A DNA stretch of 19,643 bases from contig JBGSTX010000176.1 in NCBI GenBank assembly GCA_041736305.1, forward strand, positions 1 through 19,643, in the 5' to 3' direction. Origin of the DNA: Oligoflexus sp. Lineage in GTDB: Bacteria > Bdellovibrionota_B > Oligoflexia > Oligoflexales > Oligoflexaceae. Within the stretch, counting starts at the first letter, position 1. Each line of letters starts with the position of its first letter. A model generated the notes under the pieces. It was not told the DNA's origin. It saw nothing but the letters and a program-made list of their open reading frames with translations, and did not search any database. Shown piece after piece: positions 2 through 19,253 of this stretch. The position numbers and the translations under genes were made by a program.

Positions 2-1927
2 TGGGCGGAGCGCTCGGGCTATAAAAGCCGCATCATGGCTTGTTATGATCAGCACTACACGCTGCAAAAGGCAGCTGGGCATCGGCTGAATCTCTCGCAG
101 GAAAAGAATCTGCATTCGATATGCGTCAATCACTACAGAAACATTAATAACAATATCGTTCAGCTTGTGACGCAGAATAAGACGAGCTACTTCGTAAAAG
201 CCCGAGACGGTGATTCGAACGCTACTTCAACTGCTATAGTCGGCAAAGGCGCTATCGATAACTATGTCCGAACGCTTCGGCTGAATAAGACTAATCGAAT
301 GGCCGTCCTGACGGCGCTCGTATGCCAAGAAGCATTTTTCTATGTTCCTTGGGATAGAGGAGCTGGCAGGAGGATCGCGATTGGTGACAGCTTTGTTTCG
401 TCCGGCGATAGCGTAGTCGAAGTTTTAACGCCGCTACATGTGGCGCGTAACCCACGGGCAAAGACGCAGAAATGGTATATCGTCGCGACGAGAAAGAATA
501 AGTACGATCTAGCCTCGCAGTTTGCTGCGGATCGTCCTGATTTTGCAGAGTACATCGAAGGTCTAAGCGACAAAGAGGACGACTTTAACTTTCTGAATCG
601 GCTGAATTTCGGGGCTAGCGAGAGTGGCTGTTTCGATGATGAGATCTGGCAATTTACCTTTCTTCACGAAGCAAGTGATGTGCTCCCAAGGGGTAGGATT
701 GTTACTTATGTTGGCAATCAGGCTATCGAAGAAGAGAATGATCTCATCAAAAGATATGAGCGAATTCCAGTCTTTCGAGTCTCGGGCGGGGATGTTATTG
801 AATCGATCACAGCTCACTCGCCAGCGATTGATACGCTGAGCCTACAAGAAGCGCTTGATAAGATTTATACGGCGATAGTTACAAATGCGATAAACCTATC
901 AACAATACAGCTCTATTCTTCTGATCCGAAAACAGCTGTAAACCCGATAAAGCCGGGCACCAATCTCTGGACAGGAGCTCAGGCTCCACAGGCTCTGGAT
1001 CTGCATAACGCGAGCCCATCGGTGCTCAATGTAATAAACCAGCTGCAAGGCCAGCAGACACAGCTCTCGGGGCTCAATGATGTGGTGCGGGGCACTGTTC
1101 AAAACGCGCCAAATCTAAAGTCAGGGACGGCGCTAGCGCTGGTCTTAACGTCAGCTATCCAATATGTATCAGAGCTTCAAGAAGAGATATCGTTCGCTCA
1201 AGAAGGGGTAGGCAATCAGCTCATTGTGAATCTTAAACTAAATGCTACTGAGTCCCACGTCGCTTTGCTTGGAGGGCCTGGCGCCGAAACCTATACGAAA
1301 GATTTCACGAAGCAAGAGATCTCCGGGGTAGAGCGTGTGACGGTGGAGCTGCAAAATTCGGTGATGGCTACTCAAGCAGGCAGAATGCAGGTTGGCGAGA
1401 CGATGCTTAATCAAGACGCCGGAAACTTTGACGACTACCTGGCGCTTGTGACTACGGGTGAGACGCCGCCGAGCGCTCAGCGGGCTACAAAGATTAGGCG
1501 CCAAGTACAGGCCGAAAACGAGGCTCTAAGACGCGGTGAGCAGGTTCCTGTCCTTGCCTCTGACAAACATGAAAACCATTATCCTGAGCATCTTGATATC
1601 CTCTCGGAGCCGGAAACAAGGAAAAACCCAGTTATCGTTGCAAATATTCTGGAGCACTGTAAATGGCATTTTGATAATTGGCTCGCCATGAATCCAGCGG
1701 AGGCGATGCTTTTAGGCCACATGCCTCCTCCCGGGCAAGGCAATGTTCCGCCACCGGCATCCGGGGATATGGGAGAGGGAGAGCCCATGGATGCAGCGGA
1801 GGCTATGGAGATTTCCGATCCAACTATGCCTAGGCTTCCAAATATGCCTGAAGGCACTCCAGCCGCTTATCAGAACGCAATGGACTCGTACAAAAGTGAT
1901 CTAGCCCTCGAGGGGGCTCTTCAATAA
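2..1927 (+). CDS. Portal (head-tail connector) protein, P22-like; 5' end truncated by the window
   Basis: The frame is open from position 2 (TGG GCG GAG...), so the true start probably lies upstream of the window. Size is >640 aa. It has a portal-like 'QLSGLNDVVRG...KSGTALALV' segment and a Pro-rich C-terminus, and sits before scaffold and capsid genes. Confidence 0.85.
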   Translation, partial: WAERSGYKSRIMACYDQHYTLQKAAGHRLNLSQEKNLHSICVNHYRNINNNIVQLVTQNKTSYFVKARDGDSNATSTAIVGKGAIDNYVRTLRLNKTNRMAVLTALVCQEAFFYVPWDRGAGRRIAIGDSFVSSGDSVVEVLTPLHVARNPRAKTQKWYIVATRKNKYDLASQFAADRPDFAEYIEGLSDKEDDFNFLNRLNFGASESGCFDDEIWQFTFLHEASDVLPRGRIVTYVGNQAIEEENDLIKRYERIPVFRVSGGDVIESITAHSPAIDTLSLQEALDKIYTAIVTNAINLSTIQLYSSDPKTAVNPIKPGTNLWTGAQAPQALDLHNASPSVLNVINQLQGQQTQLSGLNDVVRGTVQNAPNLKSGTALALVLTSAIQYVSELQEEISFAQEGVGNQLIVNLKLNATESHVALLGGPGAETYTKDFTKQEISGVERVTVELQNSVMATQAGRMQVGETMLNQDAGNFDDYLALVTTGETPPSAQRATKIRRQVQAENEALRRGEQVPVLASDKHENHYPEHLDILSEPETRKNPVIVANILEHCKWHFDNWLAMNPAEAMLLGHMPPPGQGNVPPPASGDMGEGEPMDAAEAMEISDPTMPRLPNMPEGTPAAYQNAMDSYKSDLALEGALQ

Positions 1928-1940
1928 AGGAGGATTGAGG

Positions 1941-2828
1941 ATGGCAGGGGAAATGGAAGAAATTGATATGAATGTTGGTGGGGGAGCTGATGAAGACTCG
2001 CAAGAGACGGGTGAAGAGTCCAATGATGAATTTAGCGAGAACACGCAGGATAGCAAAGGCAAAGATCTAGCGAAGGTTAATATTTTTGGCGAAGAGGAAG
2101 ACCTTCCGCCGATAGAAGAGATGAAGCGAGACTATCAAAAGTATCGTGCAGCTCAGAAGATGTTTCAGGAAGCCTCTCAGATTAAAAAGCAAATGCAGTC
2201 GTTTATTCGCGAGATAAAGAAAAACCCTGACATCCTCTCCGATCCCCGGCTCGGGATTGATCTCGATAACTACGCCGAGCAGAGGATGCTCCGAAAGCTA
2301 CAAGATAGGATGCTATCGCCGGAGGAAAAGGAAAAGCTCACGCTAAAGGAAAAGCTGCAAAGCTACGAGGAACGTGAAAAGAAAGAAAAGGAGCGAGAAG
2401 CTACTATCGAGCACCAAGAGCGGGTTCAGCGCCAGAGAGGGGAGATCAGCGAAGTAATCGATAAGGCGCTGTCCGGAACGGACATTGAAAAAGATGCCTA
2501 CGCTTTGAGGACGGGGGCCGTGTTTCTCAAGAGCTGCCTTCAGCAGGGGTATTGGCCTGATCCCGAAGAGATCAAGGAGTATGTCGAAGGGCGCGTCATG
2601 AAAGACTACGGGGCAGCACTGAGAAAGCTGCGAGGCCCGGCTCTTTTGAAGTTTCTGGGAGATGAAGGACTCAAAGAAATAAGGAAAGCTGATCTTCAGC
2701 GGCTCACAGGTAGGCTTCAGGAACAAAGGCCTATTCCGAAGATGACCGAGGGGGGCGGAAGAAAAGAGCCCGAAAAACTCGATCGCTGGGCACTTCAAGA
2801 AAAAGTAAACCGTTGGGCAGAATCATAG
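1941..2828 (+). CDS. Capsid scaffolding protein
   Basis: RBS AAGGAGG (1927-1933) lies 7 nt before ATG 1941, which is preferred over TTG 1935. Very acidic, disordered N-terminus, then a charged coiled-coil (EEREKKEKEREATIEHQERVQRQR). Located between portal and capsid genes. Confidence 0.75.
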   Translation: MAGEMEEIDMNVGGGADEDSQETGEESNDEFSENTQDSKGKDLAKVNIFGEEEDLPPIEEMKRDYQKYRAAQKMFQEASQIKKQMQSFIREIKKNPDILSDPRLGIDLDNYAEQRMLRKLQDRMLSPEEKEKLTLKEKLQSYEEREKKEKEREATIEHQERVQRQRGEISEVIDKALSGTDIEKDAYALRTGAVFLKSCLQQGYWPDPEEIKEYVEGRVMKDYGAALRKLRGPALLKFLGDEGLKEIRKADLQRLTGRLQEQRPIPKMTEGGGRKEPEKLDRWALQEKVNRWAES

Positions 2829-2869
2829 TTGTCTTAAAGCTCACAATGAGAATAGAGTAATGGCTAAAG

Positions 2870-3080
2870 GCGATACCTCCCGAGAGATTCGCGCTAGGCG
2901 CTGACGATACCCGCGCAGTCGGATTCAATAAAGGATAGGTTCAAGCGATACCTCGTGAGAGATTCGTTCTATCTTTTTCAGATACCCGCGAAGAGATCGG
3001 ATTCGAAGCGATAGAAAGAGATCCCGTTTTTATTTTTCTCCTTGATACCCGCAAAGAGTACGGATTCAAGAAAAGAAAAA
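2870..3080 (+). repeat. Array of five (plus one degenerate) hairpin repeats, consensus GA-TAC-[stem-loop]-AT-TC; candidate cis-regulatory RNA
   Basis: GATAC starts at 2872, 2906, 2947, 2981 and 3044, each followed by CTC..GAG or CCG..CGG and then ATTC. A degenerate GATAG..GAGATCC copy starts at 3010. Confidence 0.85.
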
Positions 3081-3135
3081 GAGAATTGTTTTTCAATTTA
3101 TCACTCATAATCCAATTTATTCGCGGGAGCCCTTC

Positions 3136-4359
3136 ATGGGAACTACTAATACTGCTGCTACGCTTACCTCATATGTAAAAGAAGTCTATCCTTCAGGTAT
3201 CGGTCAGGTGATTCCTCGTAAGACGATGTCACTTGATACGATGAAATATAAAAACGATCTCGAAATCGGGCAAAAAGCCAAAATCCCCATTCAAGTTACA
3301 GATGAGCACGGGTTTTCATACAAAGACGGCCCTGGGACGATTGCATTAGCAGCGGCCGTAGCCCATGAAGGCGTTCACCTTGAGGTAGGCCCTTATCAGC
3401 TTGCACTTAGAATACGGATTTCGTATGACCTTGCAGCTCAGGCTTCAAGCAGCAAGAAAGCCTTTGCTGTATGGAATGAAAAACGCTTCATTCCTGCTAT
3501 CGAATCTGCTCAAAAACGGCTCAATGTTCTTGCTACATACGGCCGAGATTCTCTCGCTGAAGTCGAATCCGTCAGCACAAACGATATAGTCATCAAAGCT
3601 GGATCTTGGGCGCCTTGGATTTGGCTCGGAGCTAAGGGAGCTCCCATCGACATCTTTTCAGCCAAAACAGCAGGCACACAGAGAAACACTGGGGCCCTGA
3701 CGATTGCCGGAATCAATTCGAGCACTCGAACTATCACTGTGTCGGGGACTCACAGCGGCGTCGCTCCCGGAGATTTCCTCTTTTACTTCCAGGCTCGGGG
3801 CCAAGAACAGTTTGGAATCTTTGGCGCTGCAAAGCAAAGCCTCGTAGGCAGTATCTATAACCTTAATCACTCTACTTATGAAGCTTTGCAGGCGAACTAC
3901 TACCTTGTAACGGGCCGACTTACTATCGGCCAGCTGTTGGAAGCTGCTGCTTACAGCATGGATAAGGGCTGCGATGAAAAGCTTGCTGTCCAGATTCCGA
4001 GTACCTGTTTTGCGAATATGGTGAATGATCAATCGGCGCTTAGAAGTCATGGCGCAGAGATGAAACTCAGAAACGGCGCTAAGTCTCTGGAATTTTCTCT
4101 GGGCGATGTCGAGCTTGAGATCATGCCAAGCGGTGTCGTAAAGCGCGGGGAATTCATCATGTATCCCGAGCGCTATACGCACAGGATCGGCTCGACAGAC
4201 TGGACGAATACCCTTCCCGGCACAGACTCTGAGGAGCTCGTGCTGCATGTTCCCGATGCTACTGAGTATGAAATGCGATTCTATACGGCTCAAACTGTCG
4301 TCCCTGAGAAAATGTCTTGGGTTACCTACGGAAGCCGCGCTGATGGCGGAATCCTGTAA
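3136..4359 (+). CDS. Major capsid protein (HK97 fold inferred) with a beta-rich insertion domain
   Basis: 407 aa, RBS GGGAG at 3125-3129. N-terminal 'LTSYVKEVYP' is typical of capsid N-arms. It follows the scaffold gene and is followed by a terminator-like hairpin. Confidence 0.85.
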   Translation: MGTTNTAATLTSYVKEVYPSGIGQVIPRKTMSLDTMKYKNDLEIGQKAKIPIQVTDEHGFSYKDGPGTIALAAAVAHEGVHLEVGPYQLALRIRISYDLAAQASSSKKAFAVWNEKRFIPAIESAQKRLNVLATYGRDSLAEVESVSTNDIVIKAGSWAPWIWLGAKGAPIDIFSAKTAGTQRNTGALTIAGINSSTRTITVSGTHSGVAPGDFLFYFQARGQEQFGIFGAAKQSLVGSIYNLNHSTYEALQANYYLVTGRLTIGQLLEAAAYSMDKGCDEKLAVQIPSTCFANMVNDQSALRSHGAEMKLRNGAKSLEFSLGDVELEIMPSGVVKRGEFIMYPERYTHRIGSTDWTNTLPGTDSEELVLHVPDATEYEMRFYTAQTVVPEKMSWVTYGSRADGGIL

Positions 4360-4378
4360 AAGTTTCCTCCTAAATAAT

Positions 4379-4407
4379 AGCCCTGACTCTCCCCGGTCGG
4401 GGCTTTC
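4379..4407 (+). terminator. Probable leaky intrinsic terminator or stabilising hairpin after the capsid gene
   Basis: AGCCCTGAC (4379-4387) pairs with GTCGGGGCT (4396-4404), with one G-U pair, and ends in only a short TTTC tract. Confidence 0.6.
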
Positions 4408-4424
4408 AGCTCGAGGTGGGCACC

Positions 4425-4934
4425 ATGGGAAGTTTAACAGTTTTATTTGAGTCGAACGAAGATCTAGCTACGCTCCAAAAGGTAGATCAGAATATTCACC
4501 TTTCCAACTATGTGAAAAAGGTCATCCTTGGCGCTGCCTGGGGATCGGTTCGCGCGTACTATGACGCTTCGAATCCTGTGGCAGCGAGCGGGACAGCTAC
4601 GCTCGTGAGCGTTCCAGCTGATGACACTATTACGATCGGCGGCGTTACGCTTACGGCCAAAGCTTCACCGGCCAATGAAAATCAATTCAATCAGTCGGGT
4701 AACGATGGCGCTGATGCTACTAGTCTAGCCGCTATCATTAGCGCTCATTCGGTGCTCGGAAAGTTTGTGTCGGCGAGTGCTAACTCTAACGTTGTTACCA
4801 TAACCTCTAGGCTTCTCGGACAGATTGGGAACCTGCTTACGCTTGCCCGGACAGGCACAGCCATAACCCTTTCAGGCGCTACACTTGCAAACGGAACGGG
4901 GGGCCCTGCTTCCGCTCCCGTGGTCTTGGATTAA
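4425..4934 (+). CDS. Accessory virion (decoration-type) protein with a domain resembling the surface domain of Mu-like tail sheath proteins
   Basis: RBS GAGGTGG (4413-4419) precedes ATG 4425. Pattern 'AASGTATL..TITIGGVTLTA..ATSLAAIISA..VSASANSNVVTITSR..G..GN..TLSGATLANG'. Immediately downstream of the capsid gene. Confidence 0.6.
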   Translation: MGSLTVLFESNEDLATLQKVDQNIHLSNYVKKVILGAAWGSVRAYYDASNPVAASGTATLVSVPADDTITIGGVTLTAKASPANENQFNQSGNDGADATSLAAIISAHSVLGKFVSASANSNVVTITSRLLGQIGNLLTLARTGTAITLSGATLANGTGGPASAPVVLD

Positions 4935-18717: not shown

Positions 18718-18969
18718 AATCAAAAAGGTGACAAATTCAATCAAGATCAGAGCGCCTATCAAAGGCACGAAATAATACTCTACAGTCGATCGAAATTATT
18801 TTCTTTGATCCGATAGCTCAGCGTGTATTTCGTGCAGTATAGCGTTTTGCTCCACCATTAGTGCAAGAAAAGCAGTGTCAAGTTTTGAGTGTTCGTTTTT
18901 TTTCTTAATGACGTCTTGTATATCGAAGCGAGTCTGATCGCGTTTATAACATGAGGGATTTTTTATCAA
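18703..18969 (-). pseudogene. Antisense small gene (helical region plus C-terminal transmembrane helix) interrupted by an in-frame TAA
   Basis: Manual translation: MIKNPSCYKRDQTRFDIQDVIKKKNEHSKLDTAFLALMVEQNAILHEIHAELSDQRK*FRSTVEYYFVPLIGALILIEFVTFLISLRS*. Internal TAA at 18798-18796. No clear RBS. Confidence 0.45.
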
Positions 18970-19022
18970 TTATGTCATATTGCGAATATTTATCTGCGCG
19001 TAAGTCCCCGGAATGCCTTGCC

Positions 19023-19200
19023 TCCCAGCTCTTTGGTGATTTCATTCATATCCGAAAGGCTCTGCGTGCGTAGCCTGAAAGGGCTCAGAGGTTATGGTAA
19101 GGAAGCTGATCGAGCGTAAATAAGCCTCAGAGCTGAGGCAGCTCTTACCCTACTTTCGATGCTTTCCCAAAGCAAGAACGCAATAGAGCCCAGCCTGGGA
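19023..19200 (+). ncRNA. Candidate structured RNA or 5' leader of unknown family
   Basis: Several nested stems and two GAAA tetraloops found by eye (see findings). No ORF of 60 aa or more in this interval. Confidence 0.35.
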
Positions 19201-19253
19201 AGCTCTCAAATGCTCTTTTCCAAGCTAAAATGAAAGGAAGAGGTATACGAGCA

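What the first reader, a model, noticed from the sequence alone, without database searches (positions are those of the whole stretch)
2870..3080. Array of covarying RNA hairpins with an invariant UAC/AU internal loop between scaffold and major capsid genes
Seen: five hairpins share one architecture, outer stem-GA-[UAC]-inner stem-loop-inner stem-[AU]-UC-outer stem. H1 2870-2892: GC GA TAC CTC ccga GAG AT TC GC. H2 2906-2926: GA TAC CCG cgcagt CGG AT TC. H3 2944-2968: AGC GA TAC CTC gtga GAG AT TC GTT (GNRA loop). H4 2977-3007: TTC a GA TAC CCG cgaagagat CGG AT TC GAA. H5 3041-3070: CTT GA TAC CCG caaagagta CGG AT TC AAG, extended by TTTTTCT/AGAAAAA. The stems change sequence but keep pairing (CTC/GAG vs CCG/CGG; GC/GC, AGC/GTT, TTC/GAA, CTT/AAG), the apical loops vary, and the 3x2 internal loop is invariant. 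G-U pairs and the GNRA loop favour an RNA on the + strand. Inference: a multivalent protein-binding RNA operator, for example for scaffold or capsid protein, that sets the scaffold:coat ratio. P22 scaffold is known to autoregulate post-transcriptionally. Alternatives are processing sites or an assembly-related ncRNA. I do not recognise it as a named family.
Basis: partly seen in the sequence, partly recalled or inferred. Interest (0 to 1): 0.9.

Follow-up and report, generated by a model that had tools for sequence, protein, structure and literature searches.

The report
Conserved hairpin array before phage capsid gene
Five small hairpins with the same unpaired UAC/AU bulge sit just before the major capsid gene of an uncultured tailed phage and recur in two related phages, so they are probably a new RNA control element, though what binds them is unknown.

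Summary
Five same-strand hairpins (outer stem, GA-UAC, 3-bp stem, loop, stem, AU-UC, outer stem) lie at 2870-3070, in the only long spacer (2829-3135) of a podophage-like structural module. The pattern GATACC..GATTC hits 5 times against 0.12 expected. It is not spread through the 5-Mb assembly or 130 related genomes. No Rfam family matches.

The motif recurs upstream of the capsid gene in two relatives. One, at 57% capsid identity, has 2 copies with different paired stems. The other has 2 copies of a variant that keeps only UAC-C..G-AU. Stems covary. Near-identical variants in other runs carry about 19 third-codon changes in the flanking genes but one change in the spacer.

My best reading (0.4) is a new cis-acting RNA motif in the capsid mRNA leader that serves as repeated binding sites for an unidentified sequence-specific factor. 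In one relative the hairpins stay with the capsid gene, not the scaffold gene.

Weak points: each hairpin is thermodynamically feeble, only three lineages could be compared, and there is no expression data.

The parts
35..1927 (+). Portal-like gene (630 aa from the ATG; the frame is open from base 2)
   Evidence: No Pfam or PHROG hit. The nearest protein-atlas clusters, at score 0.97, carry SU10_portal or P22_portal on 14-81% of members. This is a lead only.
1935..2828 (+). Scaffold-like gene (297 aa)
   Evidence: It lies between the portal-like and capsid genes. It has no Pfam, PHROG or PDB sequence match. The nearest atlas clusters are unnamed viral proteins of 280-307 aa; a 'scaffolding protein' cluster scores only 0.88. 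All 12 listed differences from near-identical variants fall on third codon positions, so it is a real coding gene (my arithmetic).
2829..3135 (+). 307-nt spacer, the only long non-coding gap in the structural module
   Evidence: ORF list. It holds no + strand ORF of 30 aa or more, no sigma-70-like promoter or terminator on the + strand, no tandem repeat by TRF and no Rfam match.
2870..2892 (+). H1: GC GA-UAC-CUC ccga GAG-AU-UC GC
   Evidence: It folds as drawn at -6.7 kcal/mol and scores 31.7 bits with model R2.
2906..2926 (+). H2: GA-UAC-CCG cgcagu CGG-AU-UC (weakest copy; the outer stem is 2 bp only)
   Evidence: Only the inner stem is predicted, at -2.3 kcal/mol. R2 scores it 25.9 bits. The loop change C2916U is seen in three other runs.
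2944..2968 (+). H3: AGC GA-UAC-CUC guga GAG-AU-UC GUU (a G-U pair in the outer stem)
   Evidence: (-6.3 kcal/mol). It is 85% identical to H1 over 27 nt at an offset of 75 nt.
2977..3007 (+). H4: UUC a GA-UAC-CCG cgaagagau CGG-AU-UC GAA
   Evidence: (-1.9 kcal/mol). It lies 75 nt from H2 and belongs to the same repeat family.
3026..3087 (+). H5 (core 3041-3070: CUU GA-UAC-CCG caaagagua CGG-AU-UC AAG) on top of an A/U-rich lower stem
   Evidence: inverted repeat I3. The 62-nt fold is -11.9 kcal/mol, z -2.25.
3125..3129 (+). GGGAG, a Shine-Dalgarno-like sequence 6 nt before the capsid ATG
   Evidence: Read. It is 8/9 complementary to CUCCCGAGA inside H1 (inverted repeat I5). Whether this matters was not tested.
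3136..4359 (+). Major capsid protein gene (407 aa, HK97 fold)
   Evidence: phrog_14242 'major head protein', E 5.4e-7. The AlphaFold model has pLDDT 86.2. Foldseek finds 261 PDB matches at E<=0.001; the top ones are phage capsids (PhiTE, cyanophage A-1(L), SU10).

Best explanation
The array is a previously undescribed structured RNA motif in the leader (intercistronic region) of the late mRNA that encodes the major capsid protein.

Each unit is a short hairpin. Its helix is interrupted by a 3x2 internal loop (5' UAC / 3' AU) that abuts an invariant C-G pair. Stems and apical loops are free to vary.

I infer that each unit is a binding site for one sequence-specific trans-acting factor, most likely a phage or host protein. 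That factor would recognise the internal loop and thereby set the translation or lifetime of the capsid message. The ancestral state would be two sites, as in both relatives. This phage expanded them to five by duplicating a 75-nt two-hairpin unit.

Shown: the motif, its covariation, its conservation in position and strand, its restriction to this phage clade, and purifying selection on the spacer.

Inferred: that it acts as RNA, that a protein binds it, and that the output is capsid expression.
For: (1) Non-random and local. There are 5 hits against 0.12 expected. Elsewhere in the assembly the pattern sits at control level: 12+13 hits including these 5, against 15+13 for the backwards control. 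This is the only cluster among 460 descriptor hits. With covariance model R2, only G000 of 131 genomes in the phylum has more than one hit; 13 other genomes have single hits at E 0.04-0.95.

(2) Conserved in relatives at the same place and on the same strand.
- L009 (capsid 57% identical) has GUGA-UAC-CCG ccu UGG-AU-UCAC and GUGA-UAC-CCC gcuc GGG-AU-UCAC in its 161-nt scaffold-capsid spacer.
- G057 has two copies of C-UAC-CCA uuauu UGG-AU-G. Its second copy aligns with L009b, including the GUG/CAC outer stem.
- The gap from the last hairpin to the ATG is 65, 57 and 58 nt in the three phages.

(3) Covariation on the 7 canonical copies. 85.4% of cells are paired against 74.4% in shuffles (2 of 500 shuffles reach that). 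The covariation score is 0.34 against 0.18 (5 of 500). Partners slid by 1-3 columns give 14-52% paired. Across all 9 copies, inner pair 3 is C-G, G-C, G-U or A-U.

(4) Strand. The G-U pairs in H3 and L009a would be A-C mismatches on the other strand. All genes run on the + strand.

(5) Selection. In contigs of four other runs that are 90-100% identical (7 of the 10 pieces 95% or more), 19 of the 21 listed coding differences are third-codon changes. The spacer shows one listed change, C2916U in the H2 loop. For run X2 that is 1 change in about 247 covered spacer bases against 18 listed in about 730 coding bases (my arithmetic).

(6) Not coding. Minus-strand ORFs over the array read the two boxes in different frames in different copies, and they are not conserved in length.

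(7) The centre-to-centre distance between the two boxes varies from 12 to 18 nt. That does not suit a rigid double-stranded-DNA site.
Against: - Each hairpin is weak: -1.9 to -8.5 kcal/mol at 37 C, with z-scores from -1.4 to +1.4. H2 and H4 are absent from the minimum-energy fold of the spacer.
- By energy the minus strand of the spacer folds at least as well: z -2.50 against -1.58.
- Only three lineages could be compared. Copies within one phage are duplicates, so independent compensatory events are few.
- More distant capsid relatives (G060, G130) lack the motif.
- No RNA run holds the region, so transcription, RNA ends and any binder are unobserved.
- No candidate RNA-binding protein was recognised among the 16 window proteins scanned.
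- In G057 the hairpins lie in a 153-nt divergent gap. There they could be upstream of the capsid promoter and so not transcribed from it.
Confidence: 0.4

Rival explanations
1. Processing or stability element without a dedicated binder. The hairpins would be cut by, or block, host ribonucleases. This would uncouple capsid mRNA abundance from the upstream portal and scaffold genes. Intercistronic REP hairpins in E. coli operons and the RNase III sites between T7 genes work this way (recalled knowledge).
For: The array lies in an intercistronic position in a same-strand gene block with no promoter or terminator consensus in the spacer. Copy number varies (2, 2, 5). H5 sits on a longer A/U-rich stem followed by a U-rich stretch.
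Against: A pure exonuclease barrier needs stability, not an invariant internal loop, and these hairpins are weak. The helices are 5-8 bp in total, far short of the roughly two helical turns RNase III needs (recalled). Sequence invariance of GAUAC/AUUC at 57% capsid identity points to specific recognition.
Confidence: 0.2
2. A DNA-level element: repeated binding sites on double- or single-stranded DNA for a transcription activator or repressor of a capsid-gene promoter, or for a replication or packaging protein.
For: The boxes GATACC and GGATTC are an imperfect inverted repeat (GAWWCC). The last site lies 57-65 bp before the ATG in three phages, which leaves room for a promoter. In G057 the sites lie in a divergent intergenic gap. 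The minus strand folds as well by energy.
Against: Half-site spacing varies from 12 to 18 bp, and site-to-site spacing is 34, 41, 34, 63, 47 and 51 bp, with no helical phasing. Compensatory changes in the inner and outer stems have no role in duplex recognition. G-T pairs imply one strand. Stems of 3+2 bp are too short for cruciform extrusion (inference). No sigma-70-like promoter was found after the array, although the host's promoter type is unknown.
Confidence: 0.12
3. A free-standing or excised non-coding RNA that acts in trans as a decoy or sponge. Examples would be an anti-defence RNA (a mimic of a type III antitoxin or of a CRISPR repeat) or a mimic of a ribosomal RNA site.
For: It is a multi-copy array of one motif, like sponge RNAs and ToxI (recalled). 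Read circularly, GG-AUU-C[helix]G-AUAC-CC repeats 12 of the 13 letters of the 16S helix-24 apex GG-AUUAGAUAC-CC, which is present in genomes of the same genus and family.
Against: The units are not regular tandem repeats: TRF finds none and the spacings are unequal. No genome of the 131 in the phylum has an array-like set of R2 hits, as a matching CRISPR repeat would give. No CRISPR array is assembled in G000. The rRNA likeness is post hoc: GATTNGATACC occurs 15 times outside rRNA in the 7.6-Mb genome G073. That puts the chance of an rRNA match of this kind at roughly 0.04 once order and gap are left free (my estimate). The G057 copies keep only GGAU/UACCC. The fixed position before the capsid gene fits a cis role better.
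Confidence: 0.1
4. Functionless or selfish palindromic repeats (REP/MITE-like) that happened to land and duplicate in the only free spacer.
For: Copies within the window arose by duplication of a 75-nt unit. Copy number varies between phages.
Against: No copies occur elsewhere in the assembly, in G057, or in 130 related genomes. The motif keeps the same position and strand in three diverged phages. The spacer is far more conserved than synonymous sites in close variants.
Confidence: 0.08

Closest known systems
Coat-protein operator hairpins of RNA phages (MS2, PP7) and other phage translational operators (recalled knowledge)
   Same: A small hairpin in which a few unpaired nucleotides are sequence-fixed while the stem pairs may change, read by a phage protein to control translation.
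   Different: Those are single sites that overlap the start codon of the regulated gene in ssRNA phages, and the fixed bases include the apical loop. Here there are 2-5 copies lying 57-65 nt or more upstream of the start codon of a dsDNA phage capsid gene. The apical loops are free, the fixed part is a 3x2 internal loop, and no binder is known.
Iron-responsive elements (five IREs in the transferrin-receptor 3' UTR) (recalled knowledge)
   Same: Several copies of one short hairpin in one mRNA, each with a conserved bulge or internal loop in the stem. Stems covary. The hairpins are bound by a protein that changes translation or mRNA stability.
   Different: IREs are eukaryotic and also have a conserved apical loop. 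There is no sequence likeness. This is an analogy of design only.
REP/BIME intercistronic palindromes of enterobacteria (recalled knowledge)
   Same: Arrays of imperfect hairpins in spacers inside operons that can alter the relative expression of neighbouring genes.
   Different: REPs occur in hundreds of copies per genome and often alternate in orientation. This motif is confined to one spacer and one strand.
RNase III processing sites between genes of podophage T7 (recalled knowledge)
   Same: Hairpins with a conserved asymmetric internal loop in intergenic spacers of late or early polycistronic phage mRNAs.
   Different: T7 sites have about 20 bp of helix, while these have 5-8 bp. There is no sequence likeness and no Rfam hit.
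Autoregulation of the P22 scaffolding protein gene (Wyckoff & Casjens, J Virol 1985; seen only as an entry in the reference list of PMC2115188; the paper itself is not held)
   Same: Precedent for post-transcriptional feedback in a podophage head-assembly module with the same portal-scaffold-coat gene order.
   Different: There the regulated message is the scaffold's own, and as far as I recall no repeated hairpin operator is described. Here the element travels with the capsid gene. No homology to P22 proteins was found.

Membership tests
Any Rfam 15 family | Score at or above the family's gathering threshold | tested here: not met
   There are 0 matches at gathering thresholds in the window, L009 and L011. 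The best sub-threshold matches in 2700-3250 are E 3.1-6.7 at 11-14 bits, against thresholds of 48-130 bits.
REP/BIME-type repetitive extragenic palindromes | Many copies dispersed through the intergenic regions of the host genome | tested here: not met
   The pattern is at control level outside the window. The only cluster among 460 descriptor hits is this one. With R2, other genomes give single hits only.
REP/BIME-type repetitive extragenic palindromes | Association with a RAYT (TnpA-REP) transposase | not tested
   No search for RAYT genes was made. None of the 16 window proteins scanned hits a transposase family.
CRISPR repeat / phage solitary repeat mimic (RNA anti-CRISPR) | Repeats of constant length and spacing, or likeness to a host CRISPR repeat | tested here: not met
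   Start-to-start spacings are 34, 41, 34 and 63 nt. No CRISPR array is assembled in G000. No array-like multiple R2 hits occur in any of the 131 genomes (strict filters, and arrays are often unassembled in draft genomes).
Type III antitoxin arrays (ToxI-like) | Head-to-tail tandem repeats of one unit length next to an endoribonuclease toxin gene | tested here: not met
   TRF finds no tandem repeat at a minimum score of 30. The neighbours are the scaffold-like and capsid genes.
Intrinsic terminator | G+C-rich stem directly followed by a U run | tested here: not met
   No + strand terminator-like site occurs in 2600-4700. Only H5's A/U-rich lower stem is followed by a U-rich stretch.
Kink-turn | Three-nucleotide bulge followed by tandem sheared G-A / A-G pairs | tested here: not met
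   Read from the sequence. Neither strand orientation places GA opposite AG next to the 3-nt side of the loop. The definition of the motif is recalled.
tRNA / tmRNA | Cloverleaf detected by ARAGORN | tested here: not met
   There are 0 genes in the window.
Protein-binding RNA operator (functional class, not a family) | Conserved unpaired nucleotides in a covarying helix, in cis to the regulated gene | tested here: met
Protein-binding RNA operator (functional class, not a family) | A demonstrated binding protein and an effect on expression | not testable with these tools
   No RNA holder is listed among the sequencing runs, and no RNA-protein docking tool was available.

The most novel reading that the evidence does not exclude
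Each hairpin is a circularly permuted copy of the apex of 16S rRNA helix 24 (the '790 loop', GG-AUUAGAUAC-CC), with the loop tip replaced by the outer helix. The capsid mRNA leader would then display 2-5 mimics of a ribosomal platform site. They could capture a factor that normally reads that site, such as an initiation factor, a platform ribosomal protein or an rRNA-modifying or assembly enzyme. That would favour capsid translation or titrate the factor late in infection. The roles of the 790 loop are recalled, not tested here.
Probability: 0.05. Interest if true: 0.85.

Novelty: new variant of a known kind. Interest (0 to 1): 0.5.

Why it matters
Tailed phages must make hundreds of capsid subunits per particle from operons that also encode proteins needed in a few copies. 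How this ratio is set is known for only a few model phages.

A sequence-specific, multi-copy RNA site in the capsid leader would be a new handle on that problem. It is conserved across phages whose capsid proteins are only 57% identical, and it is under stronger constraint than synonymous sites. It could also be a compact new RNA-protein recognition module.

It is equally a caution. The clade is uncultured, only three lineages were available, and the binder and the output are inferred.

Tried and rejected
- **Cultured phages.** blastn of the spacer and tblastn of the capsid protein against 50,697 phage records gave no match.
- **IMG/VR, protein route.** No capsid relatives were found with a single protein or with alignment A2.
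- **IMG/VR, DNA patterns.** Four DNA patterns were scanned. The hits were chance matches, or coding sequence: collagen-like repeats in L145/L177 and a conserved G-D-T-Q-C-I-A-W-I-H stretch inside a 291-aa ORF in six contigs. No hairpin clusters turned up.
- **GTDB genome contigs.** Nothing was found.
- **Alignment A1.** It was too diverse for locus search (searches returned errors), so I repeated the searches with the closer set A2.
- **Covariance models.** Model R1, built from 3 copies, was too narrow: it gave H5 only a marginal match (10.9 bits, E 1.9) and missed H2 and H4. Model R2 replaced it. MAFFT misaligned the 3' halves in A3.
- **Sequencing runs.** No RNA holder is listed, so nothing can be said on expression.
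- **CcrM/HinfI idea.** GATTC is a GANTC site. I rejected this: there are 93 GANTC sites in the window against 75.5 expected, at the same density as the genome, and the G057 copies lack the site.
- **Cyanobacterial host.** One capsid relative is labelled Allocoleopsis sp. by its source. This is not supported for this assembly: no PsaA/PsaB hit at 92.7% completeness, and only 244 HIP1 octamers.
- **GATTCGATACC in G073.** The nine sites are in unrelated contexts.
- **PDB sequence searches** gave nothing for the portal-like, scaffold-like and capsid proteins.
- **Earlier findings of this scan.** Nothing was found.
- **Literature.** Full-text searches for scaffold/capsid intergenic stem-loops, for 790-loop mimicry and for P22 scaffold autoregulation returned no paper on such an element. 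I saw listings and abstract openings only. Two further searches failed on term format and were not repeated. Supplementary files were not consulted.

Full report
**What is there**

The window is a whole 19,643-base contig (C127) of a 5.0-Mb, 392-contig draft genome. All long ORFs run on the + strand and are tightly packed. In order they are:
- a portal-like gene (35-1927; atlas lead only);
- a 297-aa gene with no family (1935-2828);
- a 307-nt gap;
- the major capsid gene (3136-4359);
- tail-fibre, SU10-adaptor-like and other structural genes.

The capsid call is solid. It has a PHROG 'major head protein' hit at E 5.4e-7. An AlphaFold model built on a 76-sequence alignment has pLDDT 86.2. Foldseek finds 261 PDB matches at E<=0.001, led by phage capsids. 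'Scaffold' for the upstream gene is an inference from position and size.

**More than chance, and local**

GATACC-N6-16-GATTC occurs 5 times against 0.12 expected, and 0 of 200 shuffles reach 5. In the rest of the assembly the pattern is at the level of its backwards control: 12+13 hits including these five, against 15+13.

A looser descriptor gives 460 hits in the genome, and the only pair of hits within 100 nt is here. A covariance model built from 7 copies (R2) scores the five copies at 25.9-31.7 bits; the next best hit in the window is 14 bits. Across all 131 genomes of the phylum, only G000 has more than one hit.

So this is not a host REP-like family. Rfam has nothing. ARAGORN, TRF and the promoter/terminator scan find nothing in the spacer on the + strand.

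**Relatives**

The capsid protein has 18 relatives in the large protein database and 869 representatives at E<=0.001. It has none among cultured phages or IMG/VR. DNA could be obtained for only a few relatives.

- **L009.** This is a 2,351-base metagenome contig with a capsid 57% identical. It has a homologous upstream gene and a 161-nt spacer. That spacer holds two copies: GUGA-UAC-CCG ccu UGG-AU-UCAC and GUGA-UAC-CCC gcuc GGG-AU-UCAC.
- **G057.** This genome is in the same family (capsid match E 3e-175). It has two identical copies of C-UAC-CCA uuauu UGG-AU-G, found nowhere else in that genome. The second copy aligns with L009b, including the GUG/CAC outer stem.
- **G060 and G130.** These more distant relatives lack the motif.

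The last hairpin ends 65, 57 and 58 nt before the capsid ATG in the three phages. In G057 two opposite-strand ORFs with no family separate the scaffold-like gene from the capsid gene, and the hairpins stay with the capsid gene.

**Structure**

On the 7 canonical copies, 85.4% of cells pair against 74.4% in shuffles (2 of 500 reach it). The covariation score is 0.34 against 0.18 (5 of 500). Slid partners give 14-52% paired.

Across the nine copies:
- Inner pair 2 is U-A or C-G.
- Inner pair 3 is C-G, G-C, G-U or A-U.
- Outer pairs beyond GA/UC differ in almost every copy yet mostly pair.
- UAC, the adjoining C-G pair and AU are present in 9 of 9 copies.
- GA/UC is present in 7 of 9 copies.

Two G-U pairs fit the + strand only.

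Against this, the hairpins are weak: -1.9 to -8.5 kcal/mol, with z-scores from -1.4 to +1.4. H2 and H4 are not in the minimum-energy fold of the spacer. The minus strand folds at least as well by energy. If they form, they probably need a partner or non-canonical pairs in the loop.

**Origin of the five copies**

H1/H3 and H2/H4 are each 75 nt apart and 85-92% alike. A two-hairpin unit was therefore duplicated and a further B-type copy (H5) added. Two copies, as in both relatives, is probably the older state.

**Selection**

Contigs from four other public runs match at 90-100% identity (7 of the 10 pieces 95% or more). Of the 21 differences listed in coding sequence, 19 fall on third codon positions: 12 of 12 in the scaffold-like gene and 7 of 9 in the capsid gene (my arithmetic). 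The spacer shows one listed change, C2916U in the H2 loop, shared by three runs.

For run X2 that is 1 change in about 247 covered spacer bases against 18 listed in about 730 coding bases. The whole spacer is therefore under stronger constraint than synonymous sites at this short distance. At long distance only the hairpin core survives.

**Not coding**

Minus-strand ORFs of 55 and 65 aa (41 aa in L009) cover the copies. They read the first box in one frame and the second box in differing frames, because the loop lengths differ by non-multiples of three. They are not conserved in extent.

**Mechanism**

My best reading has confidence 0.4. The design is an invariant asymmetric loop, free stems and loops, and several copies in cis to one highly expressed gene. 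That is the design of a protein-recognition site on RNA.

I therefore read it as a multi-copy operator in the capsid mRNA leader that sets translation or stability. The binder is unknown; scaffold and capsid proteins are candidates only.

The rivals are:
- nuclease processing or a stability element (0.2);
- DNA-level sites (0.12), disfavoured by the variable half-site spacing of 12-18 bp and by covariation;
- a trans-acting decoy RNA (0.1);
- selfish repeats (0.08).

**A speculative likeness**

Read circularly, GG-AUU-C[helix]G-AUAC-CC repeats the apex of 16S helix 24, GG-AUUAGAUAC-CC. That sequence is confirmed in a genome of the same genus and in one of the same family.

The 10-letter core occurs 15 times outside rRNA in a 7.6-Mb genome. 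Allowing for order and gap, I estimate the chance of such an rRNA match at about 0.04. H1 also resembles the anti-Shine-Dalgarno tail (recalled), which shows how cheaply such likenesses arise. I keep the helix-24 likeness only as the novel case (0.05).

**Verdict**

This is a real, conserved, clade-restricted candidate RNA motif with no described family. Its kind of design is known and its function is unproven. It is moderately interesting, not the 0.9 first given.

Noticed in passing
L011 2877-3846 (G057:C15, strand opposite to the capsid gene): In relative G057, two A/T-rich ORFs (203 and 121 aa, no Pfam family) are inserted on the opposite strand between the scaffold-like and capsid genes. 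This looks like a moron-type insertion.
   Followed up: partly
L012 3030-3341 (G060:C34, capsid strand): The more distant relative G060 has a 103-aa ORF with a weak SprT-like (zinc-protease motif) hit between the scaffold-position gene and the capsid gene. About 150 nt before the capsid ATG it has a perfect 9-bp hairpin, GAGGUACAU-UUUC-AUGUGCCUC, instead of the motif.
   Followed up: partly
window 3094-3101 and 3113-3120: The direct repeat CAATTTAT occurs twice, 19 nt apart, between H5 and the capsid ribosome-binding site. It is unexplained and could be part of a promoter of an unknown type.
   Followed up: no
window 2877-2885 and 3121-3129: CUCCCGAGA inside H1 is 8/9 complementary to UCGCGGGAG, which covers the capsid Shine-Dalgarno sequence. 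This allows a possible long-range anti-SD pairing. No equivalent was seen in G057.
   Followed up: partly
window 18718-19229: A second gap of about 510 nt without a listed + strand ORF of 50 aa or more lies near the end of the contig. It was not examined.
   Followed up: no
L145 617-739 and L177 1258-1380 (IMG/VR contigs): Collagen-like triplet repeats (81-nt period) in two viral contigs matched the DNA pattern by chance.
   Followed up: yes
G000 as a whole: The phage contig is binned with a genome that has no PsaA/PsaB and no assembled 16S rRNA. Capsid relatives occur in 2 of the 21 other genomes of the same family but in only 1 of the 109 genomes of other families in the phylum, which supports that family as host range. 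One database relative is labelled as coming from a cyanobacterial MAG, which may be a binning artefact.
   Followed up: partly
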